Assembly: GCF_006345805.1 (NCBI RefSeq)
Contig: NW_021836000.1
Coordinates: forward strand, 1-64,000
DNA length: 64,000 bases
Reading direction: 5' to 3'
Source of the DNA: Octopus sinensis
Lineage: Eukaryota
In this document: piece after piece, positions 26,089 through 55,850 of the stretch
How the letters are laid out: each line of letters opens with the position of its first letter
Numbering within the stretch: position 1 is the first letter of the stretch
The notes under the pieces: model-generated
What the model saw: the letters and a program-made list of their open reading frames with translations, nothing else
Told to the model about the DNA's origin: nothing
Database searches by the model: none
Program-made: the position numbers and the translations under genes

Positions 26089-26091
26089 CAA

Positions 26092-28780: not shown

Positions 28781-28789
28781 TGGATCCCA

Positions 28790-29530: not shown

Positions 29531-29839
29531 TAATTAAATTGTATCAAATTTCGCAATTAATATCAAATTTCGCACATGAAATTAGTTTTTTTCCATCAAA
29601 AATTTTCTACATTAGTGTACTTGTAAATCCCTAATTAAAATAAATTAATTAGAATACAAATGGAAAGTAAAATGGCAATGGCATTTTTTGACCTTTCAAT
29701 TATTATTTTTTGATTTTTTAAAACTGGACATCCGGATTCAATAAACTGACATAAATTGTGGCTTTTCATCACTTCAAAATTATGCTTTGTGTGAATTTCC
29801 GAATTAAGCACATCATGATTTTCCGCTAGAAATAAAATA

Positions 29840-32318: not shown

Positions 32319-32329
32319 ATTAATAAGAG

Positions 32330-33398: not shown

Positions 33399-33872
33399 AA
33401 ATTATGTTAAATTTTTATATTTGACCTTATTTTTTAAAAAATTCTTGAATAAAAATAAATTAAATTTAGAGAGAATTTATTTTATTTTGGTCATTATCCT
33501 GCTATTATGTTTATTCGGTACTTTTATTAATATTATCATTTTAGTACTTTTCATAAGGATTACATAAAATTACAATTAAAACCGAAGTACGTGGATTTTT
33601 CTATGATGTCAAAAGTCTTACATATCACTACAAACCTTTTTCCCTCAAATATTCTGTCCTTCTTTCACACGGGGTTGGCATAAATTTTTTTAGCTTGTTT
33701 AATTTTTGGTGTAAAAAATATTACTCAGCAGAGTAAATGGACAATTTAAACTTTCGATAACTTTAAAAATGATAATTCTTAATTTACTGACTTTATTTTT
33801 CGACTACGGTTTTGCACCCGTAATTTTATTTTTTGCAAATGAGCAGCTTTGATATGATTTATTAAAGTTATA

Positions 33873-35614
33873 CAGTCCGACCCCCAAATGGGGCACCAAG
33901 TGCCCCAAAATGCGGGGGTGCCCCAAAAACAGGGGTTTGTTATTTTTTTAAAAATTAAACCATTAATAAACATCAAAAACATTTTTACTAAAATATTCAG
34001 TTATTTTCTTTTTATTTGTAGAGTTTTGTCTGATATTGTTCGTCAATTTCAGCCGAAAATCAAAAAAATCTCGGAGCATACTTGGTGCAACATTAGAAAT
34101 TTTTTCTTCTAAATTGTTAAGCAGATCTTTTGTTTTTGCTACGACATTTTCACTATTTTCGGTTTCTGAATATGTATCATAAACATTATTGTTCATGTCT
34201 TCGCATTCTCCATCAATTGTTTCGTTAACAACTTGATCTAAATGTTCATCTGTTAGACAGTTTTTTGTTGCATAAGAATCACGGTTCCTGTCGATTTTCT
34301 TCCAACAATTAACAATACTTTTAGCATCTATTTTCTCCCATCCTTTTGAAATTAGCATCATAACCTGACGCAAATTTAATTTACCAATAGAATGTGTAAA
34401 ATCGTTTTCGAAATCTTGAAAACATAAAAATTCCATTAAGAAAGAGGAATAATAATCTTTAAAAATCTTGATTATTCCCATATCCAAAGGTTGTAAATAG
34501 GGCGTTGTATTTTTCGGCAAAAATAAAAATTCGATGTTCGAACATTCGGCAGTTTTATGGCATCCCGCATTGTCAAGTATTAATAATATTTTTCTGTTGT
34601 TTTTGCAAAACGATTCATTTATAAGTGTAAGCCAACTCATAAAAGTCTTTCCAGTCATCCATGCATTTTGAGAAGATGAATACAATAACCCAAAATCTTG
34701 AACATCAAATTTTTTAGACACCGAGGTTTTTTATATTTTCCAATAATCAATGGATTAAGTTTTTCCCCGATTAAACTGCAGCATAGAAGAACAGTGAGTC
34801 TTTCTTTCCCTTGTTTATAACCAAAACACGGTTCGCCTTGTTCAACAAATGATTTTTGAGGAGTTCTTTTTATAAAAAGCGCAGTTTCATCACAATTAAA
34901 TATATTCTCAGGTCCATATTTTAATACTTTCTGGTCATATTTTTCAAAATAATTTTTCACATAAGATAAATCACATGAAGCTTTTTCACCACATATTGAC
35001 TTGAATTGAAGTTCATGCCGCAATTTAAATCTATCAAGCCACCCATTGGAAGCTTTAAAAGAAGTAAATCCAATTTTTGAAGCTGTAACTAAGGCAATTT
35101 TTTTCAAAATAGGGCCTGAAATCGGAATTTTATCTACGCGTAGTCTTTGAAATATTTCAAAGACTTGATCATCAAATTTATCTTTATCGGCTTTAAATGT
35201 GTCATATTCCTCAGAAATAGTATTGCCGTGTTGCAAGAAAGGTACAATATTTCGTTTTATTCTTGATATTGTTCCTTTACTTGTGTTGTACTTTTTCATT
35301 AGTTGCCTCTCAGATAAATTTTTCTTCAAAATTTCTTTAGCAATCTTCAATTTAGTTTCGTAATCCATAACCACAACAATAAAAATATAAATTGAAAATA
35401 AAACAAAAAATAATTAATTTATTATAATTTTATTTTATTTTTAATTCCTTATAAATGATTTTATGGTGCCCCAAAAATTCCATAATTTTTTATCGATTTT
35501 TATTTTTTTTCTGCCAAAATGTACTTTTGGAATAAAGTGCCCCAAATTGCGGGGGTGCCCCAAAATCCGAGGGTGCCCCACCCCTGGGGTCTGCCCCATT
35601 TTGGGGTCGGACTG
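33873..35614 (-). mobile_element. Complete pogo/Tigger DNA transposon; transposase 33963-35374 with one frameshift
   Basis: TIRs CAGTCCGACCCC.AAATGGGGCA at both ends with TA TSD; HTH and CENP-B-type HTH (ASNGWLDRFK), CDET, DNA, QPLD catalytic triad. Confidence 0.95.
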
Positions 35615-35649
35615 TATACTGTTGCCTTAGGCTTAATTTTGCAAGCATT

Positions 35650-36330
35650 TTTTTACTTAATTACACGAATATGTCTTGTTCCTGATACGCCTAGGAGATT
35701 GTTGAAATAATCTCTTCCCTTAAATCTTAATGTTTACTCCAATTCTAGCTTTTGTCACTTTTTAGAAGGTCATTTGCTCGACCGATACAGCAGTCAATCA
35801 TCTAATTTTTCTTATCATCTTTGATTTTAAAAAATTCATCTCTCAAGGAATAATAAAAATGTTCTTTCCAGGTTACAGCCACAAAATAAACTCTCTAATA
35901 AACGGAAAAAAACATTCTGCCAAGTCTTCCATCAAACTGAGAATCTAAACAGATTAGTGCTGTTAATCCATCGGCTCTTGATTAAATACGGACAAAATGT
36001 TTGTCCTAGGCATAGACAAATGACGGTGAATGGACAAAACCGTCGTGAATGAATTATTTTCCTTTATCCTTTGAAGTCTGTCAATCCATCAGTAAAGTTC
36101 TACATGATACACAAACCTGTCAATTTTATCAGAGAGGTTTCCATAAAATAAAAATATTTTGAAAATAATCAGATATAAAAGAATCGGGCATATGCCAATA
36201 TGATGCCAATACTCATCTCGACAAAATATTGCTGAGAGTAGTTAAAGATAGTCTGATATAAATATTAACAAAGTTAGTAGCTGTATTTCCTAAAACAACA
36301 TTTTGCTCTAATCACTGTGAAACAAAAGAA
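35650..36330 (-). mobile_element. Decayed non-LTR RT relic
   Basis: Frameshifted remnants resembling GI.QG...SP and LAYA(DD). Confidence 0.35.
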
Positions 36331-36405
36331 CCCTCTTTAAATCTGATTTAAATGTGTTAAAAAATTTTTGTGTAAATAAATATTTATTATTAAGATTATT
36401 TTAGT

Positions 36406-39400
36406 TTAATTCGTGTACAACTTAACTTCAACACAAAGTTCTCGAAATACAAAATAGTAAGAACTAAAATATAAAAATGTAATTGGTAGCATCATCCATT
36501 CAAAAAACGAGCTTACGGATACAAAATTCTATTTTTTATAAATAAACCTTATCAAATTTAATATTAAACCAAAAACAAAAATTAAACAAAAATTAATTGA
36601 TATTCTCTCTTCTCTTAGGGGAACTACTCCGTTGACCGGTCATGTCTTGACACCTCTCCTCTTCGTATTGCAGTAAGAAAGCAGACTCCTCTGGCAAGTC
36701 AACTGACACTCCCAGTTCTTCTCCTCTAGCGATAAGACTATCCGTTTCCTTCTCAATTTGGTAGTTGTCGACCTTCATGCCATGTTTGTATTCAACGACC
36801 ATGCTCTCCAGGGTTTTCTTGATTGTCACTGATTGAATGTACGCCTTAGTCGGGACCTCTATATTCAACTTTTTCATGTAGGACTTATAGAACTTGGTCA
36901 CTACCCATCCCATGTCAATACGACAGGGACTATCGTGACTTTTGCCTTGTGAATCTGTGCCAATTCTCCAGCAAGTAGATCATACTTGTGGAGTTTCTCT
37001 ACTTCGACTTGCTTTAACCTGTCCTGGGATGTGACCCCGACTTCGATTATCGTTATCTCATTTTTCATTTTATCAAGCACGAAAATGTCTGGCTTGTTGT
37101 TTTTAACTTCAATGTCGGTCTGCAACGTCATGTCTACTCGTATTTCAACACGACTATTTTCCACGACCGACTGGACTGAGTGTGCTTTCAATTTCTTGCA
37201 TTTCTTTATTCCGTACTGACGACAGACGTGTAGATGTATGCATCTGACAATTTCATTGTGTCTTCGCATGTATGACCCGTGAAGCATTCTGCTACATCGA
37301 GTAGCTAGGTGATCCACGGTTTTTCTTGCCGAGCCGCAATGGTTACAATTAGGCTTTGCCTCTCCGAAAAACAAATTGCGATCCTGGGCCAAGCAATATA
37401 GTGCCTCGGCCTTTGGGCCATTGTTCCCATTGGCTAGCCATACATTGGACTCCACGATATCAGCACTCGGTTCCTGAATGCATTTAAACAGCGTTGAATG
37501 TATCATCTTAGATTTAATGGTGTCCATTAGTCTTTTCTTCTGGCACTCCTTAATAAGGTTTACATCCAATTTTGATTGGTCTTCCAGATTGTACTTGAGA
37601 GCGAGAAATCTTGCAATCGTGGTCATATGTGTTTTCTTTTCTCTCAAGACCCGCAAGATTCCTGCTCTTCTGAGGCACAACGAGGCTTTTCTTTCAAGGT
37701 CGGAGAGAAATTGGAGCAGGATGCATTCGCTCTTATTGGAAATTGAGATTAAGCCTCTTCCAAACCATTTCTGCCGAGATATAATCTTTCTTTATTAGCG
37801 GGCTTCAGATGGATTCGTAAAGTAGTTAGAATGCGACGAATTACCAGATCAATGGCATCAAACTCACTCGGTTCAATGTCGATCAATCCGATATAGTAGT
37901 TGTAGAGAGAGAGTGCATATTCGTTTATCGCTTTAAAGAGGTTTACTGCACTTAACTTTGTTTTTGCAAGACTCTCGATTCTCTCTTTCACGTTTCGAGC
38001 AATTGTTTTCATTACCTCGATTTTCTTGACATCACTTCCTCTATCCTCCAAGACTCCCAGGTATCGATACCCAGCACACCCATCCAGACATTTTGTATCT
38101 TTCACATAGTCCAGGTTAGTCGCAGACTTTTCCGAGTTCCTCTTGAGGCCAACGGCATCAAAATATTCATCGACATCTTCCATCATTTTTAGAACGGTGT
38201 CTTCTTTCTCAGCAATTATTTTCAGGTCGTCAATAAACAGCAAATGGTTTGTTGAATATGAAACCGTGAACGGGTCATTTTGACCTATACGCACCTTCGG
38301 GAACTTCATATTCAAGCTCCTACTTAACGGATCCATTACCAGAGTGAAGAGTTGTGGAGAGAGTGAGTCTCCTTGTAAGATTCCTCTTTCCAATTTTACA
38401 GTTCCAATTCTCTTATTGTTAAGTGTCAAAATGACATTCCAATTTTTGATTAAAGTTTTCACAAAATTTGTGATCCAATTCGGAATTCCAGACTGATCAA
38501 GCACTTGACATAAGAATTCATGATTGACAGAATCAAATGCCTTTCTGACATCGATCCACGTTGCAAATAAGTTATTTCCATACTCACTATTGACACACTG
38601 GTTTATTAGTGCTTGTTCCTTTGCGCCTTGGCATTGCCTTCTAGCTCCCAGCTGATTATCCGAGATAAGGTTAAACGCTTCGATATAGTCTGTAAGCTTT
38701 GTATTCACACATTTAGTGACAAGTTTGTACAATATAGGCATGCAGGTAATCGGCCTTAAGTCATTTGGGGAATGGCACTTTTCATTTTTTGGAATGAGGT
38801 ATGTTACTCCTGTGTAAAACCACTCAGCAGGGGAATAGCCTCCTTCACAATTTTAAGGATCTCATCGCACAAATGGCCATGAAGAGCTTCGAACTTTTTG
38901 ATAAAAATCCATAAACTCCGTCACAACCCGCGGCTTTCCAATTGGGTACACACTGGATAACATTCTTGATAAAATCAGTTTTCACGTCACTGGAAGCTGT
39001 TCAGCTCCAGTAATATGCTTACCAACAATAGCTTTAGGAGCACGGTTCTCCTCTTTCTTCCATACGCCCTTCCAGAAAGATAGACACTTATCTTCTGGGA
39101 CTTGACAATCAGAATCTTTGTTTTCACAGTTCAGTCTTCGATAGAATCTTCTCCTGTTTAGTTCAAAACAGAAATTATCTTGTCTAAACGACTTTCTGGA
39201 GCGATAGGTTGAGATTTTTTTCTCCATAATTTTGACTCTATCTTCAATAAGACTAGATACACGCGTGCCAGCTCTCCCTTTCTGGATTTTTTGTATCCAA
39301 ACGAGCATAAAATGTTCAGTGTCTTCTCTTTTTCGTCTTTAGATTGCTGGCCATTAAACTTATTAACGAAAGTTAGATTTTCTCTAAGTTTGGAAATCTT

Positions 39401-40769
39401 TCTTTCCGTATCCTCAAGCCATGTGCTTTTTGTTAGGGGTTGCCTCGTAATGTTTTCATATGAGCATTGCCCGGCATAAATTATATCCGTGATTTCATTT
39501 ATGCTTGCAGGCGGAGAAGATAATATATAGTTCGAAATCACTGCATTAATTGCGACAAGAACATCAGTCTTTAGCAATTTATACGGAATCTTCTTTGTGG
39601 GCATTCTCGCATTTCGTGGGATTGACTTAAGTTCCTGAATTTGGAGATTAAACTCTTCCTTGCATTTACCATAAATGGAGATTTCTGTCTTTGGCAATAA
39701 GTAATCTGAGGTATCCACATTATTTCGACTGCCACAGCCATTAGAGCAGGGCTTTACATTCAGTAAGTTTTTCACATCAGAGACACTCTTTTGAGTGAGA
39801 AAGCGGACGTTGAAACATTCGGCAATAAGTCTCCATCCTCCACGAGGAATTCTGCCAAATCGTCTCTTCGCCGACTCCACAACACCAGAAATCCATTTGA
39901 CTTTGTCGTTAGAGTGTTCCTCCATTTGACTTTGTCGTTAGAGTGTTCCTCACCGATCACCGATTTAAGAGGGATTAGATGGGGTGAGACATGTTCGGTA
40001 GGAGAGTTTCCACAAATTTCATGGGGATCATGTAGCCCCGAAGACTTGCTTCTTACCAATAGTTGTTGGTTATCTCTAATATCTTTTGTAAGAGAGCCCT
40101 CAGGATTTGCTTGCAGACTGGTGAAAACAGACATACACGACACCACAAGAAATTCCGACTTTTTCAATAAACCTTACATTGTTGTTGAAATATTTTGACA
40201 AAATATTGAATATCAGATCTAAAACTTTAAAAATCACATCGCATACACATTGAAAAAGAAATAGCCAAAAGAATTGCCAAAATCCACTCATATATAATAG
40301 CTTCTATAGTTTTAAATTGTGAGTAAAGCATTGTAGAGACTTTGGCAAGAATAAAAAGTCCAATTAAATTCCCAATAAACCCAATGAGTGCTCCGGAAAA
40401 GAGTAATTTCTGAAGTGGGTATAACTATTAAAATTTTAAATGAAAATAAAAAAACCTGAAAATTGAAGGGAATTAAAATTCCAAAAGTGCACACAAATTC
40501 ATTAAGAAATAAAATAGTATTTAAAAAAATATAAATCAAACGGTGAAGAAACAAAATTGTAAAAAATAATGAGAAAAATGAACTTTGCGGTCGATGGTTA
40601 GCCATGTCACAGAACAGTTGTTTTTTATTTAATGTTACCTGACATAAGGAATTATATAGGTAGAGTTTATTTGTTTATTATTGTTTCATATTATAATAGT
40701 CCCAATCACTCCGACTGTGCCCCATATTAAATAAATAATAATTATTATATGAAAATAGCGAGTATACAT
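36406..40769 (-). pseudogene. TMEM150/DRAM (Frag1/DRAM/Sfk1) family pseudogene interrupted by a retrotransposon
   Basis: Paralog of 57795-58746: MYTRYFHIIII...IPYVS|DMANHRPQSSFF...SSFFEWMMLP...EFRELCVEV. Premature TGA, mutated acceptor, internal deletion, 3.6-kb insertion in the last intron. Confidence 0.85.
36552..40165 (-). mobile_element. RLE-type (R4/NeSL-like) non-LTR retrotransposon with 11-bp TSD
   Basis: TSD AATAAACCTTA at 36541-36551 and 40166-40176. RT (DVRKAFDSV, GILQGDSLSP, LLFIDD), CCHC (CNHC...HLATRC), RHN, KPDI...IIEVG...EK endonuclease. Several frameshifts, one caused by a 29-bp tandem duplication near 39893-39950. Confidence 0.95.
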
Positions 40770-41159: not shown

Positions 41160-41900
41160 GACCACGGTAAAACCGATCAAAAGTCACGGATCTAGATGCA
41201 CTCAACTAGGGACCTTATCTTCGCTTGATGATCTTAGTGACCGACCCCCATATGAGGTAGAAATCAGGTCGATTGGATGCACACACGTGAAGAACTTGAG
41301 TATTTAATTCTGGTTTTCATTGTATGTCTAAAATCTTGAGACGAGCCGATCCAAGTTAGTTTGAAGTTTTTCAGAGGCCTTTTGGATGTCCTGATCCCAT
41401 AAGGCCATTACGATGTCACCCTATATAAAACGACAACATCATTATTGTCGAGGGAGGTCACATGATCACATTACTAATGATAACATTACCAATGAAAAAA
41501 TTTCATTATGTAAAACCCTTCCGAAAACAAATGATGTGCGGTGAGCGACGGTAGGAGGCTGACAAATGGGAACTGGGCGAATCAGATATTCCCCACCTCT
41601 CTTTGGATCCGGAAAGCTGTATTGAAGATTTGGAGGCTAATGCTGATCGGTACAGACAGTTCCTTCTTCCTTGGTTTCTTCATTCGATTAGTTAGCTATG
41701 ACTGTTTGTGCTGGGTTTGCTAAGCAAGCTTGTGGGTTAATAAATAAATTGTCGAGGAAGGGCGGGAGATCTTCAGGAAAAGGTTGAAAAGGGTCGGGAT
41801 AAAAGGGATTCTTGTGGTACTCCGTTTGGCAGGAATCGAGACGTGGATTTCCGTTCTCAGAGTCAAAGGCTTTGTGGATGTTTACATAGCCAAACACGGT
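41160..41900 (-). mobile_element. LINE (I/Jockey-like) RT and C-terminal relics
   Basis: 41340-41450 is a reverse-strand homolog of 63137-63245; a downstream piece resembles a C..C...T..HLF terminus. The region is bracketed by a ~60-bp direct repeat (about 41085-41138 and 41931-41984). Confidence 0.6.
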
Positions 41901-42019
41901 CTTTTGGTGATTTGAATGAAATATTTTTTGTATTAAATTTCAATTAATATTGCTTGTGATGTCTTGAAAATGTGTTAAAAGAAGTAGAAAAATTATTCAA
42001 TAAAATTTTGTTTTTTACT

Positions 42020-42800
42020 CTGAATGGTGGAAAATTTTTTTGCAATTCACAATGAAAATATCCGAACTTGGTTGATAATACTCAAAAAATGCATCAGTCA
42101 AAGTATTCATGTGAACCTCTTTTCAGTAAACTTACGGGAATAAAAAGTAAGTATTGAAATCAATTGACTGGTGAACATTTAATTCAACGTACATCGTATT
42201 CGAACTCACTCTTAACAACAACAAGCCCTGCCGCAAGATGAAAACGAAATGTTGACATCTCGCTTGGGCCAGCCACATAAGATCAAGACAGAAAGAGAAC
42301 ATGTTATTAGGAAACTAACTAATCCAAAAGAAGACAATCCAAACGAAGACACGTGTCTCTGCTCCATCTGAACTTCACTCTTCGCTTTGATAAAATATTA
42401 GACGCCAAACAAAATCAAGTCTCACATTGATTCTCTTATTACGTAATAAAGCATTTTTTCTTTAATAAATAAAATCTTTTTTGTGTGGCCCGGAAATATA
42501 CTCTTTCTTGTCAATTTGACCCTTAAGCTATTTGGCCTTTATATATTAAAACCAAAACAATAAATGGGTTAAAGAGAAATTGATAATTAGAAAACTCGAA
42601 CTTTTAGAGTGTTTGTTCTCAACATTTGATGCTTTTGTGATCCGGATGACTAAATTGATTAAAATATTCTTACTCATCTGGTTTGAAGACAGATTTTTTC
42701 GATTCTTCACGGACCTAAAATCACAGTAGCTAGATAAGCATGATTTTGTGTTCTGGATGTTCATTTTCATGATTTTTGGAGTTCGGTTTTTTTTGGTTCA
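42020..42800. mobile_element. hAT transposase relics (C-terminal piece on +, N-terminal piece on -)
   Basis: Y.CE..FSKL..IKSKY.NQLT.EHL on the plus strand; BED-like remnant on the minus strand. Confidence 0.45.
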
Positions 42801-43685
42801 ATTTTTTGATTATTTTGTTTGTACAAATAAAGTTTATAGTCGACACTTTTATCATTAAAATCAGTTAGGACAATTCGGATATTCTTTCTTGTGACGTTTT
42901 CACTAATAAAGTGTTATCAAAACATCAAATATATTTTATACGTTCAATAATTCATTTTGTCTCAATAAGTATCACAAACCGAAAACGTTATGAGCAGTTC
43001 TGATTGAGAGGACTTATCTTTCCCATAAAAATTTTGCTAGAATAAATTGATAAATTAAATGTAAATTATCATAGGTTAAAAAGAGTCATTCAGTGTAATA
43101 AATGGTCTTCACATTTGGAATGCTACTTAATTGTTATTATTTGTTTCAATTAAAATCTTCATGGTGTCTCCAATAGAGTAAAAATACACTTAAAGCAGAA
43201 AAAAGTGACTATTTATAAATAATACAATCTGTTATACAGTGCTGGTAGAAAAAAACCGGTTTTGGAGTTACTAACTTTTTTTGACGGATAGCATTCAATT
43301 TTCCAACTGAATTGAATTCTTTGGAGTTGATTAGATTTATAATTTTTTTTATTTATAAAAAGTTTCATTAATCGTTTAAAATTTTGAAGATTTAAATTTT
43401 TGCGTGTGAATAAAAAACCGGTTTGCTTTATTGAGTGATATTTTAGTTATTGAATTTTGAGTTTTATAAGCAAATGTTAAATGCAAAAATTAAAGGAAAG
43501 ATCCAAAAAATATGGGACTGCTGATAGGATTCCTGGTTCGGACGTCTTAAAAAGCTTCAGAAAACAGACATTGAAATTCTATTACATCTTATAGAGTGCG
43601 ATCCAAAAAAATCTTCTAACACGTTGAGGAATGAAATAAAACATTTAACTAGTAAGAGTGTCTGTAGAAAGACAATTGGAACTTA

Positions 43686-44095
43686 CATGCCTGACAAAAA
43701 AAATTGGATTTGTAATAAATCGACTTTTTTTAAAATAAATAATAATTTAATTTTCTTACATCATTCTTGGTAAAATTAGAATTATTTTTTTAATTTGTAA
43801 AATTATTTTTGGCTTTTAGAATTTAATTTTAAAGCAGAATTTAAAATTTGCCGGACAAAAAAAAATTGGATTTTTGTTGTTTTTGATCTGATCTCGTATA
43901 AATGAAGCGTAATTCAAAAATCCATTTATCTGATTTTACAAAAGGAGTAATGATTGGATATTACTCTTCAGGAAAAACAATTGAAGAGATATCTAAAAAT
44001 ACTGAAAATTCTCAGATCAACCGTGGGATTTGTGACAAGAAAATTTTCCAAAGAAGGCACCTCTACGCGAAAAATTGGATCTGGACGTGGAGGGA
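43686..44095 (+). mobile_element. Second Tc1-like element, 5' end only, inserted at a TA of the first
   Basis: CATGCCTGACAAAAAAAATTGGA end with an internal repeat near 43850; HLSDFTKGVMIG...RSTVGFV.RKF...RKIGSGR paired-type HTH. Confidence 0.75.
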
Positions 44096-44504
44096 CATCA
44101 ACTTATTAAACTGACGAATGGTTAAACTGACGGTTAACCGACTTGATTTGTTAATACAATTAATTTTATTATAAAATATTATAGGAGAAATATTTATACT
44201 GATGACTACAAACGGAATCAGTAATACCATAAATATATGAACTATTCCCATATAATATTTCTCAATTTTTTCAAATCCCTCAATTTTCGTAGAAATACAC
44301 AAATAGCCGCCAATAGGCATTTTAAATGAGTGATAAAAAATCACGTATGGCACACATAGCATAAGCGACACCACAAGAACACACCCAAGTATAATTCTGG
44401 AGATTTTCGGGTTGCAATATGTGACATGGGCTGCGCGATACCAATGGGCCGCGTGATACCTGACGTGACCTTGAAATGTGCAATTATGACATTGATGGGA
44501 TTAA

Positions 44505-44820
44505 TTTTTTTTTAAATAAAAATAACCAATAACTACAAGTTAATTAATTAAAAGCTTCAAGGGCGGGAAGCCGACGCGATCGAGAAAGAGTTAGAGCGTA
44601 CTATCGCAAGGGACATCCGCTCGAAAAACCATCTCGATTCGCGGGCGTCGCCTGTGATGGCAGACATGCGGGACCCGATCTCCTGAACGAAGCTGATTGC
44701 CTTACTGCCCAAGGAACCGGAAGTCTCAACCGCGAATGGAAGGAATTGGAACTTCTCCGTAAGTGAGGAGTACTTCCGCATCTTTTTGCATTCCGCGGCT
44801 GTGACAATAGATCCAGGAGC
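44505..44820 (-). mobile_element. 5'-truncated CRE retrotransposon fragment
   Basis: KYSSL...FLPFAVETSG...ERMSLAIVRSN with a short poly(A). Confidence 0.8.
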
Positions 44821-45022
44821 GACCGCGACTCATTAAATTATAAATTTTTTAATTAGACCGCGACTCATTCTTATCATTTAATAATTTACTAAATTAGCTA
44901 AAGACTCTCTCATTTTGACAAAAAATTATATTTGTAGGAATTTAATTATCAGAAATTAATTTTTTTGGTGGAAAACCTAAATTTCTTGAGTTATTTCTAG
45001 CGTGCAAGTATATTTTGCAGCA

Positions 45023-45955
45023 ATGTCCGCGTACAAAGGTTATGTAAAGAATAGTTTGGAATATCAAATTTTAAAAGATGCTTTACAGGATAAATTTCCT
45101 GAACATCTTACAAAGCAAAAAAAATATAGACTAGTTAAGAAAATTGAAAATTTTACTGTAATTAATGAAAGGTATCATACAAATTGTAAATGTATAGATT
45201 GTATCTTAAATGTGCGAATTCAGATCACAAGCTAGTGATTTGTCTAGACAATGAACCCGAAATGGAGATCGTTGCTAAAAGTTTGCATGACTTCTCGCAT
45301 GGAGGAGTTAACAAAATTGAATATGAATGTCGACGACGATATTTCACAGTTAAAAATGAGATTATTCGAAAAGTCATTCGAAACTGTGAAATTTGTAAAT
45401 TTGCGCGACCCTTAAAAGTTTTAACTTTTTTAAATCCTAGATTGGAGATATAAATAACCATGTCTTTGCATCTTGCCCAAATGAAAGATTTCAGATAGAT
45501 CTTATAGATCTGAAAAGTTTTTCTACTATAAATAAAAATTTTAAATGGATTTTAACGGTCATTGACGTATATAGCAGGTTAGTTTTTTTAACAATTTTTA
45601 TAGATTTGCATTTGCAAGGCCGCTCTACACTAAGTCCTCAAATGAAGTTTGTAAAAACCACAGATCATTATTTTTCTTAAATGGTCCGTGTCAATTTCTT
45701 CAGTCCGATAATTGGACTGAATTCAAGAATCGTGAAATGACCAATCTATGTGAGGAATTCAATATCGAATTCACGGAAGGACAAACAATCCCCGCTCACA
45801 AGGGATTGTCGAACGCTTCAACCAGTCAATTACAAGAAAAATGGCAAAAATGATCGACAATGATAACAAAAAGTGGCTGGAAAAATTAGAAAATGCAGAT
45901 AGAAAATTCGATGAGCGAAATTTTGATTGTGCCAATGTCCAGACTTAAAAAATAA
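45023..45955 (+). pseudogene. HHCC zinc finger plus DDE (rve) integrase with three mini-introns; frameshifts and internal deletion
   Basis: H...HGGVNK...CEIC; ERFQIDLID; VIDVYS|RFAFAR; LQSDNG; QGIVERFN. Introns 45172-45197 (26 nt), 45418-45440 (23 nt), 45578-45603 (26 nt). Confidence 0.85.
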
Positions 45956-45965
45956 TTAACAAGTT

Positions 45966-46077
45966 TTTTTTTTTTTTTTTTTAATCAATAATAACTGTAA
46001 ACGAAAACAGAGAGAAAAGAGAGTTAACAAGAGGACTTCCCCGCCTCGTAGATGGAGAAACAGTTTCCACGTAAGTT
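45966..46077 (-). mobile_element. Very short CRE 3' insertion with TSD
   Basis: LRGNCFSI...*, poly(A); TSD ATTAACAAGTT at 45955-45965 and 46078-46088. Confidence 0.75.
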
Positions 46078-46122
46078 ATTAACAAGTTATTATTCTTTGA
46101 AGTTTAATATTAATTACAATAT

Positions 46123-46584
46123 TTTTTTTTTTTTTTTTTTTATAAAAAAAACAAAACTTTAATACAGTCAAATTAATTAATAGAGAATTAATGTCGTGAA
46201 CTTGAGGGTTAGTCCGACGACGAAGCACTGCGGATAGAGAGGCAGTTCCCGCGAAGAATTGCAACCGAGATGCGCTGGAAAAGCCAGCTCGTCTCCCTCC
46301 GGTCATTTGTATTCTGTGAGATTCTTCCTCCCACAACCCGTAACAGATTTTCTACCTTCTTTCCAACCACACCGGAGGTCTCAAAGGCTAGGGGGACAAA
46401 CTCAACGACGTTCGGAAGCACAGCGTACTTCGTCAACTTCCTTTCTTCTGCCAGCGCACATGCGTAGCCTGGTGTACTGGCTGTTCCTGTGAGCACAGTA
46501 TCTGAAAAGGAGTCGACGCAAGTTACATCCCAAACAAGAGACCTTCCTCCTCTAAAGGGGAATATAGTCATCCCGTCAGGAAGG
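46123..46584 (-). mobile_element. 5'-truncated CRE insertion with TSD
   Basis: PDGMT...LVWDVT...AILRGN, poly(A); TSD AATTACAATAT at 46112-46122 and 46585-46595. Confidence 0.85.
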
Positions 46585-46706
46585 AATTACAATATTGACA
46601 TTAAGTTAAGCTTCAAGGTCACGTCAGGTATCACGCGGCCCATAGGTGTCACGCAAACCATGTCACACAATATTTATTTCGTTTTAATGGATGTTTCAAA
46701 GATATA

Positions 46707-48015
46707 CAGTAGACTATCCATTTAACGAAAAAAAATTTAACGAAAATATTCATTTTACGAAAGTCAAATATTTTTTTACGTTTTTCCTTAGATAAATTCA
46801 AAAATAAAATTTTTTTTCTTTGTATTAGTGAATATTTAAATATATTTAACGAATATTTAAATAACGAAAATTAAAATTTTTGATAAAATTTTAAAATAAT
46901 TTTTCTCGCTATTTCTTTGTAGTAAACCATGTTTGCAAGGTGAACAATATGAAAAAAAAAGAAAAACTTATCAATTTCAACAAAAACTGGAAGTTATTGA
47001 TTTCAAGAAGAATAATCCTGCTGTTACTCAAGAAAATTTGGCTCAGCGAATAACACTGTTATTATGCACAAATATGGAAGGAGATAAAGAGCATCCGTTG
47101 GTAATCGGAAAATTCAAAAATCCTCATGGTTTTAAAAATATTAATATGAATAATCTTGGGATTCAATATGCAAAGTAATAAATCTTGGATGACCAGTTTA
47201 ATTTTTTAAAAACTGGGTTGAACGGTTAAATTCCAAAATGAGTGTGGAAAATAGAAAGATTTTGCTTCTTTTAGATAATGCGCCAGTTCACTATTTGATG
47301 GCGAATTCAGTAATATCGAATTGTATTTTCTTCCTCCAAGACAACATCTAAGATTCAACCAATTGATCAAGGGATTGTGCATTCATTTAAATCGTTGTAT
47401 AAAAAAGGAATGACTAGAAATTTGAGTATGGAACAAATATAGGAACATTGTCATATACAGATGAACTTACCAAATTCAAATTAGTGAATGCTCTACCTTT
47501 AATTATTGAGGCTTGGAACAAAGTCACAGTGGACACTATCAAAAATTGCTTTAACAAGGCATTAAATAATTGGGCGAAGATAGATGAAAAAATACTTGAA
47601 GAATCCACTGACGAAAAAGGTATTAAATTTAAATCACCTTACAATTAAAGATAATAAAAGTGAAATTATGATTGAGTTTCCTGTCTGTGCACCTGTCGTC
47701 TGCGAAGAAAACGCATATCTTGATACAATACAATGTGAGAAGAAAATGAGCATGAAGAAATAGATAGCACAAATGACAATCCCATTGGTTATGCAGATGC
47801 ACTTAAATATTTGGAAAATATTGAAAAATATTTTTTGCAAGAATCTGGTGAACATATTCACCTAATTACAAATTTGAGAAATATATTGGCAAAAATTAAA
47901 AAGAAGGAACCTAAAATTACCGATTACATGACACATTTTTAATTAAACATTTTTTTTCGTTAAATTCATTTAACGAATGCTCAATTTTCATTTTCGTTAA
48001 ATGAATAGTCTACTG
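46707..48015 (+). mobile_element. Internally deleted pogo/Tigger element
   Basis: TIR CAGTAGACTAT.CATTTAACGAAAA at both ends, TA TSD; RITLLLC, VIGKFKNP, LDNAP, IQPIDQG. Confidence 0.9.
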
Positions 48016-48383
48016 TATATAATTCACAAGTAAAGCACAAAATGAGCATTGGAGAGGCAAATTGAGCAAAGTAATCCGCCCACATTTATTTTGCAAGCTA
48101 AATGTGTATTCCAAAATGTAATTATTAGACATAAATTGCCTGGGAGGCCGATTATTGACCAAAAAATGAGGAAGAACCTTTCAACTTGGATTGTGTATTC
48201 TGGATGTAGGTTGAACGAAGGGAAACTCATTTAGAATGCATTAAATTAATCTGCTTAAATATTATTTTTTGTATTAAATATTACAAATATCCGTCAACGT
48301 CATTATTCCTTTAAATATGTCGCGAGCGCTGAGATCGATCTATCAATGATTGTCAAAGATAAAAATAATCTATTACATCAAAG

Positions 48384-48570
48384 TTAGTTAAGGTTAGTTA
48401 GTTAGTTATGTTACCCCGGCTTCACTAACATGTAGGAAGCCGGCTGTAATCAGGTAGCGAGACGCGAAGATCGGGCGCTCCCAGAGATCCCGAATCCCAA
48501 TAGGCGGAGACAAGTGAGGCGGTCCAGGGAAGGGGAAGAGGTCTTCAGGGGTGAAGGAACGGTATGTTTC
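48384..48570 (-). mobile_element. LINE 3' end with (TAAC)n-like tail
   Basis: DLWERP...YL terminal motif followed by TAACTAACTAAC repeats. Confidence 0.55.
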
Positions 48571-48619
48571 GAAAGTTAGCTAAGGTCAATTATTGACAAT
48601 TAATACATGATAATTAACC

Positions 48620-48905
48620 ATTATTTAAGTCGTCTTGAATTTTTTTAGTCGCCTTTAATGAACTTTCTTAATAGACCCAGCACTTTGTGACTTTGACAAA
48701 ATTGTTAGACAATTTTGTTAGACTCTTTTTGAATGTGTTTTATCCACTCTTTTTTATCATCCGAACCCATCAATTTTGATAAACTCCATGTGATTGTCTG
48801 ATTAAATCTTTCAACTATCCACTGACTCTGTGGATTGTTGGGTCGTCTATGAATTTGAACAATTTTGTACTCTTGACAGACTTTTCTTATATGGTCATTC
48901 TTGAG
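48620..48905 (-). mobile_element. rve integrase fragment (Ginger-like)
   Basis: HRRPNNPQSQWIVERFNQTI...W motif. Confidence 0.7.
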
Positions 48906-48909
48906 ATGA

Positions 48910-49530
48910 AATCTGGGCCGCCGACTCGTCTTCGAAGATGAAACCAGAGCTAGACCAACACCGGCTAGCGTGCCTAATCTCGGCCGCACATCCTCACAGC
49001 GGCTCATGGCTCGGCGCCTACCCATCTACATCAACAGGAACCTTTTTGGATGACGACTGCCTGAGGATCGGGATCTCCCTTCGGCTTGGCCTCAACATAT
49101 GCAGCATCCACCGATGCCGATGTGGAGCCAAAGTCGACGCTAAAGGGCTCCACCCTCTTTCGTGTCGCAGGAGTGCTGGTCGATATCCCCGCCACGCCTC
49201 GTTAAATGACGTCGTGTTTAGAGCCCTCAAGGCTGCAGGCTTTCCGTCACAACTTGAGCCTGTCGGATTGGACCGTGGTGACGGCAAACGCATAGACGGA
49301 ATGACAATCTTTCCTTTTCGGGACGGCAAGTGATGCTATGTGCATCGATTCTTTCTCTCCATCGGCAATCATGTCATCTGCCACTTCCCTCGGGTCCGCT
49401 GCGGAAAAGGCTGAGACGGCCAAAATTAAAAAATACCAAGAACTTGGACGCCGTTTTATATTCGTACCAATCGCTTTGGAGACATCGGGCGTCGCAGGGC
49501 CTCTAACCTCGGCCTTTATCAGCGACTTAG
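48910..49530 (+). mobile_element. CRE retrotransposon 3' fragment
   Basis: HSGSWL, CRCG...HPLSC, RHASLND, DGM, FVPIALETSG. Confidence 0.85.
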
Positions 49531-49658
49531 CCCCCCCGGAGTTTCCCCTCTTTCCATTCCTAACTTCTAACTTAATTATTTTAGTTATAATAAAAAGATT
49601 TTAATAATAAAAAAAAATTAAATAAATAGCGCACAACGAATTTAATTTTACTTGTGGT

Positions 49659-51470
49659 ATGTACATTAAGTCAATTGTAATTGACGGCTTCAAGTCATAT
49701 CCACGTCGTACCGAGATAAAAGACTTTGACAGCCAATTCAATGCTATAACCGGCCTCAATGGTAGTGGAAAGTCGAACATTCTCGATTCCATTTGTTTTC
49801 TACTCGGAATCACCATTCTCTCCCAATTACGAGTCAACAACATGCACGAACTTGTCTACAAGTCCGGCCACGCTGGAATAAACAAGGCCTCTGTTTGTGT
49901 AACATTCGACAACAACAACAAAAAGGACAGTCCAGCAGGCTACGAGAAGTACGACGACATTGTAGTCACCAGACAAGTAATTTGTTCATTTAAAATCAGA
50001 TTTCTATCGGTGGGAGGAACAAATACCTTATAAATGGAATAAACTCAACAAATACTCGAGTACAGGACATGTTTACGTCTGTTCGTCTCAACATAAACAA
50101 CCCAAATTTCCTGATAATGCAAGGAAGGATAACAAAAGTCCTCAATATGAAGCCTGTCGAGGTTTTTTGGTCAAATATTTCAGATTTTGTTGATGATTGA
50201 GGAGGCAGCCGGGACTGGGCTGTATGAAATGAAGAGAGCCCAGGCCTACAAGACAATTAAGAAGAAGGAGTGCAAGTTAATAAAGTTTTACGTGTTTTTT
50301 TCGAATTTTTAGGTCATAGAAGCAGATATTGGACCACTTTTGACTAAATTGGACGCGGAAAGGTCGTTTTATTCGGAATATCAGCCTTCGAATGATCAGT
50401 GTGGCCCTCATGTACTCCTCTACACAGGTATTTACACTTTTTTCATATTTAGAACGAAGTGGAAGAATATAAAGAAAAGATATCAGAAATTGAAACAAAG
50501 TTGAGTGAGAATAAACGCCGGTTGGGTGAGATTGAGAAGGAATGTGGTCAAATTGAGAGAGAAATTACAAGAAAAGGCGCGGGAAATGATAATGTTGGTT
50601 TTTTTGCTGGCAATTTTAGGACGAAATTGACAATCGAGTAGCGAAACTGCAAGCAGAACTGGACGAGAAAATGTTAGTGCAAACTAAACTATCGGCTCAA
50701 CAAAACGCCAAGAAAGAGCAGGTTATATCCGAGGAAAACAAACTAAAACAACTGATCAGACAGAAAGACGATGTTATTACGTAATCAATATGTTTAGGAG
50801 ACAAAATCGTTAGCAGAACGAAGGTTGATTCGGGTAGATCAGAGAAGAAGATTGCCAGTCTGCAAGAGGAGACTGATTTGGCGGCTAAGCGACTATTGGA
50901 ATCAGAGTTCTACTATAATGCACTGTCCACTGGTATTTCCGTGGATGGAAAGAGGAACACTCTTCAGCAGCAGTTGATTGGTAGTGGGTGATAGTAATGG
51001 GTAGACGCAAAGCATGGGGTGTCAGTGTTGGAGACTCAGATTAGACAGACAGAGCTGGAGTATTGTGGCAGTGATGATTGGTAGGTCAATCCAGATTCGG
51101 TCCCGCTTGAAGAAGAGTAGTGAGGACATGAAGAGCACGGAGGATGACTCGACTCCGACTGAAAGGGAGATTGACAAGATGAATGTCGAATTGGAGCAAA
51201 TGAGGAATGAAATAGTCCAAATTGACCAAAAACTGAACATTTATGACAAAAATGAAATCAATTCTAAAAAACAAGACTGAAGAGTGAGATAGCTTCACTA
51301 CAACATAACGTGGACAGTTTACAGTTGTGTTGAGTACATATATCGTAGGACAAGACAATTTAGCTTCCAAAACACGGAAGTCTGCGGTCTCGGGTGACCT
51401 TTATTCCCCTGAATCGAATCGTCCCCAACAAAATATCTGACCAAGTATTAGAAAATGCACAGAGACTAGT
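49659..51470 (+). pseudogene. SMC2: Condensin SMC2 5' half, intron-retaining, with internal deletions and frameshifts; truncated in the hinge
   Basis: [74 protein letters not shown], coiled coil, hinge RVTFIPLNRI...VLENAQRL at ~51390-51470, then junction to the Tc1 3' half. Confidence 0.88.
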
Positions 51471-52199
51471 AAATGGACTGATTAAGTAATAAAAAGATAT
51501 GAATTGTCAAAATTTTTATTCGGATGAACAATGACGCATGGAAAACTATTATTTTCTCTGATGAAGCATCTTTTCAGATTTTTCATACTAAAAAAAGGCA
51601 ATACTATTATCAAAAAAAAGTTCATGTTGTGAATTGAGCCCTATAACGCCTACAGTAAAATTTGGTGGAGGTAGTGTTATGGTTTGGGGCTGTATCTCCT
51701 ATCAAAGAGTGGACAATTTAGTTTTTGTTAATGGAACACTCGATTCCGCTAAATATATAAATGTAATAACGAATAATTTGTTTGTTTCGGAGCGAAAATG
51801 GGACTAAATCAGTTCACTTTTCAACAAGAGTTGGCTCCCTGTCATTAATCTGCGTTGACAACCAACCAAAAAAATTTAGTAACTGCAAAACCGGTTTTTT
51901 TCTACCAGCACTGTAGTTTTACGTATTTGTATAAATAATTGTAAAAATTAACAATATCTATTTTTAAAAAAAACGAAAAATATTTCAAAATTGACTATTT
52001 TTTTATTGGTGATAACGATGATTTAAAAAAAATTTCAACAAACTTAATGTCTTCCATTTTCAAACATATACTTTTCGTTAACGGGTATGGAAACTTTTGA
52101 TATTATTTATAAAGTTCCAGATGCTTATTATTTCGGCCATTTTTAACAAGTTATCAATTATTGTTATAAAATTAAATTCTAATTAATCCTTGTTAATTC

Positions 52200-52815
52200 T
52201 TTGATTGAGAGGACGAGCGAATAAGCAGGCAGTTTCCGCGCAATATCGCAAGTGAAATGAGCTGAAAAAGCCAGCTAGACTCACGTCTTCCGTTAATCTT
52301 CCTCGAGATCATCAAGCCGATCTCCGAAAGGAACCTTAGGGCTTTTGGGGCGATTATCCAACTCTACGCGAAAGTCAGGGGGACGAAAATGTAGGTGTTC
52401 TCCAATGAGGCGTACTTTGCGATTTTTTTCGTTTCGGCATGTGCGGAGGCTGAGCCAGGGCGGGAGGCAGAGTCGATGAGAGATGACGAGGAAAACGAGT
52501 TGACACAGGTGACGTCCCAAACGAGAGCGAGTCCCCTCTTGAACGGGAATAGCGTGGACCCATCGGGACGTTTTCCGTCACCACGGTCTAACCCAACCGG
52601 CTCCAGGACCAAAAGGAATCCAGCGGCGTCGAGCGCGCGTTTAACAATATCATTCAAGGCGGCATGCCTGGGTATTCGGCCGGCACTGAGGCGACAAGAG
52701 AGGGGGTGTAGCCCTCTCCTGTCAATGACTTTTTCGCATCTGTACTGATGTGACTGGTAAATCTCGATTCCAAGGCGTAGATACAAACCAATGCGGACGG
52801 ATTCGTTGTCCAATT
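52200..52815 (-). mobile_element. CRE retrotransposon 3' fragment
   Basis: RHAALND, RPDG, VWDVT, FQLISLAILRGN. Confidence 0.85.
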
Positions 52816-52849
52816 CGTTGTTTCGGCTTTGGTTTGGGATTTCTTCAGT

Positions 52850-53808
52850 AGTCCAACTCTCGAAATTTGTGTTCTATTAAATTTAAATCAGGGTTTTGAC
52901 AAGGCCATTCAAGTGTTTTGATATTTTTTCGCGTGTCCATTCGCAAACAATCTTGGCAGTATGCTTTGTGCCAAAATTTGTTTACAATAAGCAGAATTTA
53001 TTTTTCATCGATAAAAACGATTCTACCAACGCCTTTGGACAATAGCATTATGTTTCCACCACCGTGTTTCACAGTAGAGAGAATGTTATTTAAATTATAA
53101 CTTTCTCCGGGATAATAGCGTACATATCGGTGTCCTATAAGTTAAATTTGCACTCATTGGAAAAAATTATTGTGTTGAGTTTGGCATTCGACATACCAGA
53201 ACATTTGTTTTAAAATGAATTTCTATTTTCAACGACCCGTCATAAAAGTGGTTTTTTAATTGAGTTTTTAGTAATAAGACCGCCAGATCGTAACGTATTT
53301 GATATATTTTGATACTGTGATCATGATCAATTTTATGCATAATTTTCCTTAGCGTAATGAAGTGATTGATGTCATGATATTTAAAAATATCGGTCTTTCA
53401 GAGCCTACTCTTCAAGACAGGGATTCATTATTTTGTATTTTGGAATGTATTTTTTGCACCGCCGATTTCGAAATCTTGTATTTTGTGGCAATAAATCTTT
53501 GCGATAGTCCATTCCCTAAATTTTCGGCAATTAAAATTTTCTCCGCGTCAGATAAGTGCTTAGGCATTAGAATTTATTTATTTAAATAATGATGAAACAT
53601 TTAATATTTATGTGTCACTTTTTTAATAGAAATAGATATTTAAAAAATTATCGTTAAGACAGATTTTAGAATAAAATAGTCAAATTTTGAGTATAATATG
53701 TTTATCAATAAAAATAACAGTTGTTAGCTTTTGAAATTTTTTGAATGATAATTAAAACCTTAATATATTGCATTATTTTTAAATGGTCACTTTTTCCTGC
53801 ATTTAGTA
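52850..53808 (-). mobile_element. Degenerate Tc1-like transposon
   Basis: MPKHLSDAEK...SQRFIATKYKISKSAV HTH; IIFSNECKF; TVKHGGGNIM...KGVGRIVFID. Confidence 0.75.
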
Positions 53809-54051
53809 TATATTGGAATCCAAAATTATAAGAATTAGAATTCAAACTCAGGTTTACGCCTTTTACAACAAATTCTCAAATATTTTGAACTGCACTGCAC
53901 AAACCTGCTCGTGTTCATAGTACATAACTCACCCCATACTAAGCCAACCCGACCTCCTACATGTTCATGTACCACATTTATGAATCAAACACAGTTAAAT
54001 AACCAACTATCTCAGACTTGACTGACCTGCAATTGACTTGCTAAATTACTA

Positions 54052-55850
54052 CTAGACCTGCATACTACAAAAATAAAAAAAACTGTAAAAAATAATAAAA
54101 ACAAAATCATATCTAATTAATGTCATCCCTATTTTTCTACAAAATAACAAATAAAACAACTTTTTTTTCTCTTTCTTTACAAAAGACGTCTCGACCACAT
54201 TTCCATCACAACTAGACATAGACTGATTAACCGTCTTCTTCCTTTTTACAACCACAGTCTCGACATTGGCTGCATCCTCAGTCACAATGGGGACAAATTC
54301 AGCAGATTCCATCAGCTTCTTTCTCTTAGTCCCCTTCCCGGCCACCATTGGAGACACCTCCCATGGAGAAGGTATCGCCAAGTTCAATTTAAACCTCAAT
54401 TGTCGATATTGACTAAATTAGACATCAAATCGTACTGGTCAATCCACTCTTGTGGGGTTGTCTCATTTCTACGTCCATATTGAAGCAACATTCCATTCTC
54501 TATCAAATGTTTCTTCAATTTAGACTAAAACACAATTTCCCGCCATAAATAGACATACCACATCACCAAGTCCCCAACGACGTGGATATGTATCTCTTTC
54601 CATTAAAACCCTCTTAAGCTTAGCCACTACTCCATGACTACACATCCCAATGTCCGCAGACTCCATTTTGGCTACCCCCAAGGCAACCGCTTCTCCTTTC
54701 GTAGTAACTATTACAACCACACTATCCAAGGTGATTCCTTCATCATATCTCAGTACTCCAGGGGCGAGGACCATTGCCCCATAGCACACAGCATTGACCT
54801 ATTTTGTCATTTTTAACATACAGCTGAATCTTTGATAAAAATACGTTTGTAGGATAATAATAAGCCTTCCATTAGTTTGATTACATGTCTGAGGTATGTT
54901 TCGTTATTTTTATTGTCGTAATACCACTGGGCGTCCAAGACGTCATGGAGAGTCACTAAATTGTCCTTAAAAATAATATTTTGACTAGTAATATACATAT
55001 TCGGTAATTTTTCCTGATTGGACTCTTCTTAGTTCAGTCATTTCTGCCCCTACTCCAAGATGTACTCCAATATGCTCACAAAGTGTACGGATATATGTCC
55101 CTGCTTCACATTTTACAGAAAAAAGTGCTATATAATAAAAATTATATTTACCAATGTTTTTATCCTTGTGGAATTCTAATAATTTTGACTCAAAAATTGT
55201 TCGGACTCGCAACTGTCTCTTCACTGCTGCAATCGCTGGAGGTTTTTGAAAAATTGACCCACGAAAATAAGAAAGTGACTAAAAATATTAATAAAAAAAA
55301 CATTTTGAATTTCCGTGATATTTTTTATGGCTTTATGTAAGCTCATGACACAGACATACTCTTTTCCGGCTGTTTGTTGCGATTTGACTAATCTTGTGGC
55401 ATTTTCTATACACACAATAAGACATCCAGTGACCTAAATGGGCTAAAAATGTCTTATTTGTAACCTTTGGGTCTAATGTGCCAGAATGGCCTGTTTTATT
55501 CACTCTGAGAATTCTCTTTACCCACGCCACTACTTCATGGGAGGACGGATTTGCAGGTTTATCCAAATTAATAAATCCAGATCTATTTTTATAGTATAAT
55601 ATATTAAAATGCCTTATATATTGATCAATTGGTCTGTTTAAAGGGGAAACTCCGTATGGGAGAGGTACGTAGTGATTGGTTCGTACATTTAGTTTTTCGT
55701 AGTTCTTTTTAAATTGAATTTAGTGGGGATTACTTTGAGTAATAAAGGCCATTTTTTGGATTTTAAACGTTGGCCTTTAAGGTTTGGTTCTTCTGTCTTA
55801 AATAGGTTTTATTTTAGATTTTATACCATGTTTTCGTGCTCCAGGTCCAT
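54052..55850 (-). CDS. DKC1: Dyskerin / H/ACA snoRNP pseudouridine synthase (Cbf5), about 10 mini-introns; 3' end approximate
   Basis: WPLLLK|[36 protein letters not shown]|[17 protein letters not shown] domain, [11 protein letters not shown], Lys-rich tail. Confidence 0.97.

What the first reader, a model, noticed from the sequence alone, without database searches (positions are those of the whole stretch)
43237..51913. 8.7-kb Tc1-TIR-bounded unit carrying intron-retaining SMC2 and GPCR cargo (Pack-Tc1-like gene capture candidate)
Seen in sequence: matching TA-flanked TIRs lie 8.7 kb apart. The transposase stops at KTIGTY (43685) and resumes close to the expected downstream position (..KRYELSK..WKTIIFSDE, ~51480). 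The intervening DNA holds a second Tc1 5' end, a GPCR pseudogene and a 5' half of SMC2 that keeps its mini-introns and is fused directly to the 3' transposase half. Inference: host DNA was captured at the DNA level inside one Tc1 element, which could be mobilised in trans. Pack-type capture is established for MULEs, CACTA and Helitrons but is less commonly described for animal Tc1, and a condensin ATPase-head/coiled-coil fragment is unusual cargo.
Basis: partly seen in the sequence, partly recalled or inferred. Interest (0 to 1): 0.75.

Follow-up and report, generated by a model that had tools for sequence, protein, structure and literature searches.

The report
Stranded gene capture inside Tc1 transposon
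One copy of a cut-and-paste transposon holds an intron-containing duplicate of the front parts of two neighbouring host genes (SMC2 and a receptor), likely pasted in once during DNA repair after the transposon had landed; the duplicate is broken and every version found sits at the same spot, so it is a real but known kind of gene capture, not a mobile gene shuttle.

Summary
The capture is real; mobility is not supported. Both TA-flanked ends come from one Tc1 (DD34E) insertion: a related repeat joins the two flanks across one TA. Inside lie part of a second Tc1, a 3.2-4.2 kb DNA-level copy of a head-to-head GPCR/SMC2 locus, and 3.6 kb of later nested transposons. The intact parent (SMC2, 1180 aa, 21 introns of 22-33 nt; 338-aa 7tm_1 receptor) lies on two other contigs, about 2% from the cargo. 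The composite occurs three times, always with the same flanks and junctions; two further copies of the insertion lack the cargo. So the cargo entered in place, once, and no transposed copy was found. The junctions carry 7- and 5-nt microhomology; the replaced 280 nt straddle the nested Tc1's right end. The cargo has frameshifts, and one of four terminal direct repeats is lost. This is a single-site Pack-TIR made by gap filling, a class described in animals (PMC8277862: 115 TcMariner cases), large for its class. The scan noted a similar single capture on other DNA of this genome (e1-9912634, untested). Expression was not testable.

The parts
43235..43236 (.). Left TA target duplication of the outer Tc1 (TcA)
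   Evidence: flanks rejoin across one TA in a related repeat
43237..43685 (+). 5' half of outer Tc1 (TcA): left end with outer and inner direct repeat (43251, 43413), transposase N-terminus with an 87-nt internal deletion; ends at the TA (43684-5) used by the nested Tc1
   Evidence: family transposase is DD34E with Pfam HTH_Tnp_Tc3_2 and DDE_3
43686..44110 (+). Nested second Tc1 (TcB): left end lacking the third base of the terminal CAG, 5' coding part, an internal deletion of about 820 nt, last 26 nt of the coding region; right end (215 nt) absent
44104..44121 (.). Left capture junction: 7-nt microhomology TATTAAA (44104-44110) shared by TcB and the host locus, followed by a short repeat of the host breakpoint sequence with a 5-nt spacer
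   Evidence: chance 0.001-0.002
44122..48230 (-). Captured 5' two thirds (224 of 338 codons) of an intronless rhodopsin-family GPCR gene, in three pieces (44122-44419, 46668-46706, 48016-48230), with a 126-nt deletion
44420..46667 (.). Later insertion: TGT..ACA element with 56-nt TIRs, 5-nt target duplication CAATA and integrase remnants (Ginger-like; label recalled), holding non-LTR-like fragments; absent from the parents and from copy C12462:17k
46707..48015 (+). Later insertion: TA-flanked DDE_1 (pogo/Tigger-type) element, present only in the window's copy
48231..49658 (.). Captured head-to-head intergenic region of GPCR and SMC2, with transposon remnants (about 172 nt at 48400-48572 absent from both parents; retroelement-like piece 48905-49569 partly present in parent C12596)
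49659..51491 (+). Captured SMC2 5' half (codons 1-597 of 1180) with mini-introns; frameshifting deletions at codons about 191, 220, 356, 483 and a 194-nt deletion from codon 510
51487..51491 (.). Right capture junction: 5-nt microhomology TAATA between SMC2 intron 11 and TcA
   Evidence: chance 0.006-0.008
51487..51913 (+). 3' half of outer Tc1 (TcA): catalytic-domain piece to 51865, a 424-nt deletion that removes the right inner direct repeat, and the outer 48 nt of the right end
51914..51915 (.). Right TA target duplication of TcA

Best explanation
This is one resident Tc1 copy that holds a broken DNA-level duplicate of a GPCR/SMC2 locus, likely copied in once by microhomology-guided gap repair after the transposon had inserted, and found only at this one site. 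Order of events: (1) TcA inserted at a TA in an older low-copy repeat (shown). (2) TcB inserted at a TA inside TcA (shown by junction; cargo-free copies read through that TA). (3) A break at or near TcB's right end was widened by 215 nt into TcB and 65 nt into TcA, and both ends annealed to the GPCR/SMC2 locus through 7 and 5 matching bases, so that 3.2-4.2 kb were copied in (junctions shown; break position and repair pathway inferred). (4) The region, with the neighbouring dyskerin gene, split into three alleles or segmental duplicates, which gathered deletions and further transposons separately (shown; allele versus duplicate not resolved). The cargo is likely without function (inferred from frameshifts and near-neutral change).
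For: Single insertion: joined flanks match C8594 at 83 of 100 columns, score 113 against at most 67 for 500 wrong partners. Parent: contiguous on C10363 and C12596, intact SMC2 and GPCR; cargo 2.0-2.3% from the parents in SMC2. Introns kept. No TcA or TcB in 36 kb around either parent. Same flanks and junctions in 3 of 3 composites; junction pattern 3 exact hits; cargo searches gave the same 5 places, 3 composites and 2 parents. Two cargo-free copies of the same TcA insertion carry TcA bases the composite lacks and form the outgroup (12 of 15 informative sites). Microhomology chance 0.001-0.002 and 0.006-0.008. Changes after the copies split: 9 synonymous, 24 non-synonymous, pN/pS 0.72, not different from neutral (p 0.39), against 0.17 between the parents.
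Against: No cargo-free copy retains both TcA ends: the two found are cut about 25 nt past the TA by another rearrangement. No intermediate with whole TcB nested in TcA was found. Changes shared by all three copies are 6 synonymous, 6 non-synonymous (pN/pS 0.27, p 0.025), which fits parent-lineage or donor-allele differences but also a short spell of constraint. All 3 dyskerin copies of this organism have the composite beside them, so it may be fixed. Genome DNA searches are lower bounds. No read or listed contig was shown to span the junctions (tables cut).
Confidence: 0.8

Rival explanations
1. One-ended or aberrant transposition: TcB first became fused to the GPCR/SMC2 segment elsewhere, and its left end then carried that segment into the TA of TcA, the far end being joined by microhomology.
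For: The TcB left end sits exactly at a TA of TcA while the far end is imprecise with 65 nt of target lost.
Against: No TcB or TcA in 36 kb around either parent; no TcB-GPCR junction outside the three composites; it needs an extra, unseen step; both junctions carry microhomology as in gap filling.
Confidence: 0.12
2. A mobile Pack-Tc1: the composite was built elsewhere or has moved as a unit with transposase supplied in trans.
For: Outer TIRs are 96% complementary with TA on both sides; three copies exist; family copies at different sites differ by as little as 0.6%, so the family moved more recently than the composite's copies split (0.9-2.7%).
Against: 3 of 3 copies share flanks over tens of kb; cargo-free copies share the insertion site; the right inner direct repeat is deleted, and in Sleeping Beauty all four sites are needed (PMC7827188, passages); none of 12 full-length copies examined has a complete open frame.
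Confidence: 0.04
3. Two unrelated Tc1 copies joined by deletion, or a misassembly.
For: The assembly mixes organisms and holds rearranged paralogues of this region; no spanning read was shown.
Against: The flanks rejoin across one TA; three copies 1.5-2.3% apart, with different nested insertions and deletions, share all junctions.
Confidence: 0.02

Closest known systems
Single-copy animal Pack-TIRs formed by gap filling (Tan et al. 2021, PMC8277862; read: parts 1-2 of 10 of the text, section 14, passages)
   Same: Host DNA with a known parent between the two ends of one TIR element; single site; microhomology at the breakpoints; small loss of element sequence (65 of 1461 nt, 4.4%, against their median 4.6%); cargo-free copy of the same insertion exists; TcMariner is their second commonest carrier (115 of 370).
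   Different: Cargo of 3.2-4.2 kb against a median of 224 bp (largest human case 3,585 bp); it spans two genes and their shared upstream region; the filler joins a nested second Tc1 on one side and replaces that element's right end; later insertions bring the interior to 8.2 kb, beyond their 5 kb and 80-120% filters.
Multicopy Pack-TIRs and plant Pack-MULE / Pack-Mariner elements (PMC8277862; PMC8903248, passages)
   Same: Gene fragments with introns between TIRs.
   Different: Those show several insertion sites with distinct flanks; here all copies share one site.
IR/DR-type Tc1 elements such as Sleeping Beauty (PMC7827188, passages)
   Same: The carrier family has TA duplications, a DD34E transposase and ends of about 190 nt with an outer and an inner direct repeat.
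   Different: This copy lacks the right inner repeat and an open transposase; binding to the repeats was not tested.

Membership tests
Pack-TIR (Tan et al. 2021) | Both flanks are ends of the same TIR element, from one insertion | tested here: met
   empty-site-like paralogue
Pack-TIR (Tan et al. 2021) | Internal non-transposon sequence with an unambiguous parent at 90% identity or more | tested here: met
   one parent locus on two contigs, 97.7-98.0% in SMC2
Pack-TIR (Tan et al. 2021) | DNA-level copy, not a retrocopy | tested here: met
   9 whole introns and intergenic DNA kept
Pack-TIR (Tan et al. 2021) | Parent not flanked by the carrier element (excludes segmental duplication and end bypass) | tested here: met
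   no TcA or TcB in C10363:12000-47999 or C12596:17000-52999; other transposon families at the breakpoints were not screened
Pack-TIR (Tan et al. 2021) | Pipeline filter for young cases: interior under 5 kb and 80-120% of the parent length | tested here: not met
   window interior is 7.8 kb between the TcA halves because of later insertions; copy C12462:17k (4663 nt in all) is under 5 kb. This is a search filter, not a biological feature
Gap-filling class of Pack-TIR | Single site, breakpoint microhomology, cargo-free copy of the same insertion | tested here: met
Gap-filling class of Pack-TIR | Cis bias: parent close to the element | tested here: inconclusive
   parent and composite are on different contigs of a fragmented assembly; not within 16 kb of the parent
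Multicopy (transposed) Pack-TIR / Pack-MULE type | Copies at different sites with distinct flanks | tested here: not met
   3 of 3 copies share flanks
Tc1 (DD34E), IR/DR type | TA duplication, DD34E transposase, two direct repeats per end | tested here: met
   family copies; this copy keeps 3 of 4 repeats
Pack-TIR with function (Ssk-FB4 type) | Transcribed and translated cargo under selection | not testable with these tools
   no RNA run listed; frame broken by aa 102-245 in all three copies

The most novel reading that the evidence does not exclude
The break that drew in the host DNA was made by the nested Tc1's own transposase at its right end alone. A nested element would then act as the trigger that turns the outer element into a Pack-TIR, a route between the two gap-filling scenarios of Tan et al. 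(internal fragile site, full excision). With a second capture noted in another nested pair of this genome (e1-9912634, untested here), nested transposon clusters would be recurrent sites of kilobase-scale gene duplication in an animal with 22-33-nt introns.
Probability: 0.3. Interest if true: 0.5.

Novelty: new member of a known kind. Interest (0 to 1): 0.3.

Why it matters
It is an unusually complete natural record of one gene capture: an empty-site-like repeat, cargo-free copies of the same insertion, the intact parent, both junctions and three stages of later decay all lie in one assembly. It supports the gap-filling model for animal Pack-TIRs at the top of the known size range and in an organism with ultra-short introns. 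It does not show a new mobile system or a new gene.

Tried and rejected
True empty allele: none found; the flank searches gave only the composite, the two cargo-free TcA copies and diverged paralogues of the older repeat. Other cargo-carrying TcA copies: the end pattern gave 85 hits, control 0; of 20 regions fetched, 10 were enlarged TcA copies, and their inserts had own inverted repeats or matched repeats of the window. Only one insert (L135) was scanned for protein families and held integrase and DDE_1 frames; the others were not, and about nine unpaired end hits were not fetched, so further captures are not excluded. Public runs: no RNA holder listed. Contigs of X1-X4 showed parent-type forms; no listed piece bridges a capture junction, but the tables were cut and contigs drop rare variants, so this is no evidence either way. 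The fourth junction-pattern hit (C17, one mismatch) was not fetched and is taken as chance. The window's GPCR piece alone gave no Pfam hit; the family call rests on the parent. Literature: searches listed no paper on capture at the end of a nested Tc1 or in dicyemids; only top listings were seen and supplements (including the species list of PMC8277862) were not read. No structure or complex prediction was run, as the cargo has no intact frame.
Full report
Setting. The window is G000:C12471:1-64000 in a 2.7-Gb assembly. Its genes have very short introns: the parent SMC2 has 21 introns of 22-33 nt. Among animals such sizes are reported only for myxobolid myxozoans and Dicyema (PMC13644364, abstract and passages). 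A second dyskerin gene only 77% alike lies on another contig. I infer a small parasite co-assembled with a larger host; earlier AI notes call it a dicyemid, which I did not test.

Observation. The TIRs, the two transposase halves, the second Tc1 end, the GPCR piece and the intron-bearing SMC2 half are all present at the stated places. The outer family (TcA) is about 1460 nt, TA-flanked, with a DD34E transposase (HTH_Tnp_Tc3_2 E 1.4e-12, DDE_3 E 4.6e-10) and ends of about 190 nt that each hold two copies of one direct repeat. Its end pattern has 85 exact hits in the assembly, control 0.

One insertion, not two. The 56 nt left of the element and the 45 nt right of it, joined at one TA, match an uninterrupted stretch on C8594 at 83 of 100 columns with one 1-nt gap; score 113, against a mean of 55 and a maximum of 67 for 500 wrong right partners. 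C10696 and the window's own 53721-53814 hold more diverged versions of the same older repeat. This is a paralogue, not the true empty allele, but it shows that both ends belong to one insertion.

The parent. Window 44122-51491, less later insertions, is colinear with C10363:27899-31142 and C12596:32391-35805. There an intronless 338-aa rhodopsin-family receptor (7tm_1, E 7.7e-19) stands head to head with a full SMC2 of 1180 aa; C12596 has no break, C10363 one 1-nt frameshift that may be a sequencing error (spliced alignment to a profile of 24 of the 120 listed homologues). Contigs of two other samples (X3, X4) continue from 51469 straight into exon 12, which matches removal of the predicted intron 11 in the parent. 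The cargo covers 224 GPCR codons, the intergenic region and SMC2 codons 1-597, 3.2-3.4 kb by the parents and up to about 4.2 kb if the donor held the extra transposon remnants. It is 2.0-2.3% from the parents in SMC2, which differ from each other by 0.8%. No TcA or TcB lies in the 36 kb examined around either parent.

It has not been seen to move. The cargo occurs at five places by two searches: two parents and three composites; the SMC2-Tc1 junction has three exact hits. The composites (window 8677 nt; C12462:17192-21854, 4663 nt; C12462:188426-195199, 6774 nt) share both flanks, over 40 kb in one case and with an inversion further left in the other, and each has a dyskerin gene beside it. 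They share every junction, a 1-nt loss in the TcB end, a frameshift at codon 483 and a 194-nt deletion. They differ by later events: the TGT..ACA element is in two copies, the DDE_1 element in one, another element sits in the right TIR of one, and each has its own SMC2 deletions. They are alleles or segmental duplicates of one event; which, I cannot tell.

The cargo came after the element. C12599:215909 and C9340:55254 have the same TcA insertion (same left flank) and read through the TA at 43684-5 into about 25 nt of TcA that the composite lacks; they have no TcB and no cargo, and are then cut by another rearrangement. Twelve of 15 informative sites group the three composites against these two. 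So TcB and the cargo entered a resident copy.

Junctions. TcB starts exactly after a TA in TcA. It has an internal deletion, runs to the end of its coding region, and passes into the GPCR through TATTAAA, shared by both; a short repeat of the host breakpoint follows. On the right, SMC2 intron 11 passes into TcA through TAATA. Random joins of the same sequences give such matches in 0.1-0.2% and 0.6-0.8% of 200,000 trials. What is missing is one continuous piece: 215 nt of TcB's right end and 65 nt of TcA. I infer a break at or near TcB's right end, resection both ways, and copying from the GPCR/SMC2 locus by template switching. The break position is inferred from the lost piece only; a break anywhere in those 280 nt would give the same product.

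Decay and mobility. Spliced at the parent's sites, the three fragments stop at aa 196, 245 and 102. Changes that arose after the copies split are near neutral (9 synonymous, 24 non-synonymous; pN/pS 0.72, p 0.39), against 0.17 between the parents. Changes shared by all three (6 and 6; 0.27, p 0.025) cannot be assigned to a branch without an outgroup and leave a short period of constraint open. Codons near gaps were left out of these counts. The right end lacks its inner direct repeat; in Sleeping Beauty all four sites are needed (PMC7827188, passages), an analogy not tested here. Twelve full-length TcA copies with distinct flanks were recoverable from the fetched loci: none has a complete frame (best 320 and 295 aa), they differ by 0.6-8.4% (median 3.0%), and the window's copy is 6.2-7.7% from all of them. 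The family thus likely moved after the capture, yet no moved composite was found.

Other enlarged copies. Ten enlarged TcA copies among 20 regions fetched held what look like nested transposons; only one insert was scanned for protein families, and some unpaired ends were not fetched. I saw no family of cargo carriers.

Comparison. Tan et al. 2021 (PMC8277862; parts 1-2 of 10, section 14 and passages read) report 370 animal Pack-TIRs, 115 of them TcMariner, nearly all single-copy, 67.6% with breakpoint microhomology, median cargo 224 bp, formed by gap filling after the element had inserted. This case meets their defining features and fails only their size filters for young cases. Pack-Mariners are also described in rice and maize (PMC8903248, passages). 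What is less usual: the size, two genes with their shared upstream region, and a filler that replaces the end of a nested second element. Searches listed no paper on that last point; only top listings were seen and no supplements were read.

Verdict. Real, single-site, decaying Pack-TIR; new member of a known kind; interest 0.3. The labels 'Ginger-like', 'pogo/Tigger-type' and 'retroelement-like' for the nested pieces are recalled from terminal motifs and Pfam hits, not from a repeat library.

Noticed in passing
window 54500-55720 (minus) and L131, L132, L133: Dyskerin (PUA domain, E 6.5e-18) with mini-introns occurs three times at 0.6-1.6% divergence, each beside the composite; a fourth, 77% alike, lies on C28 and looks like another organism's gene.
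   Followed up: partly
L060 (C12599:215338-220045) and L059 (C9340): These contigs hold two blocks of the window (41851-43685 and 32046-40769) in swapped order, joined at the cut TcA copy through about 230-250 nt of other DNA: a circular permutation that could reflect a tandem duplication or a circular DNA intermediate.
   Followed up: no
L116 (C12462:3000-12999) against window 23138-33872: One of the three versions of the region has an inversion of roughly 10 kb left of the element.
   Followed up: no
L140 (C8853) and L141 (C12605): A 700-nt internally deleted relative of the TGT..ACA element of window 44420-46667 sits at the same position (about 540) of TcA in two contigs; in L140 the flanking TcA differs in structure, so the nested pair may have been copied together.
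   Followed up: no
window 16975-18707: An element with long, nearly perfect inverted ends (153 and 178 nt arms at 99-100%) containing 44-nt tandem units, Foldback-like and young.
   Followed up: no
window 23672-23938: A 270-nt fold-back of 21-nt tandem units in both orientations.
   Followed up: no
window 19489-19850, 44557-44829, 46209-46586, 48905-49569, 52364-52873: At least five fragments of one kind of non-LTR-like endonuclease region (motifs ..RHA.LN..DG.RPDG..WDVT..ETSG) are scattered through the window; no Pfam hit for the three tested.
   Followed up: partly
window 48400-48572: A 172-nt insert with an apparent 15-nt target duplication, in the three composites and in neither parent; SINE-like.
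   Followed up: no
L055 5556-6572 (C10363, minus): The parent GPCR is intronless although its neighbour SMC2 has 21 introns.
   Followed up: no
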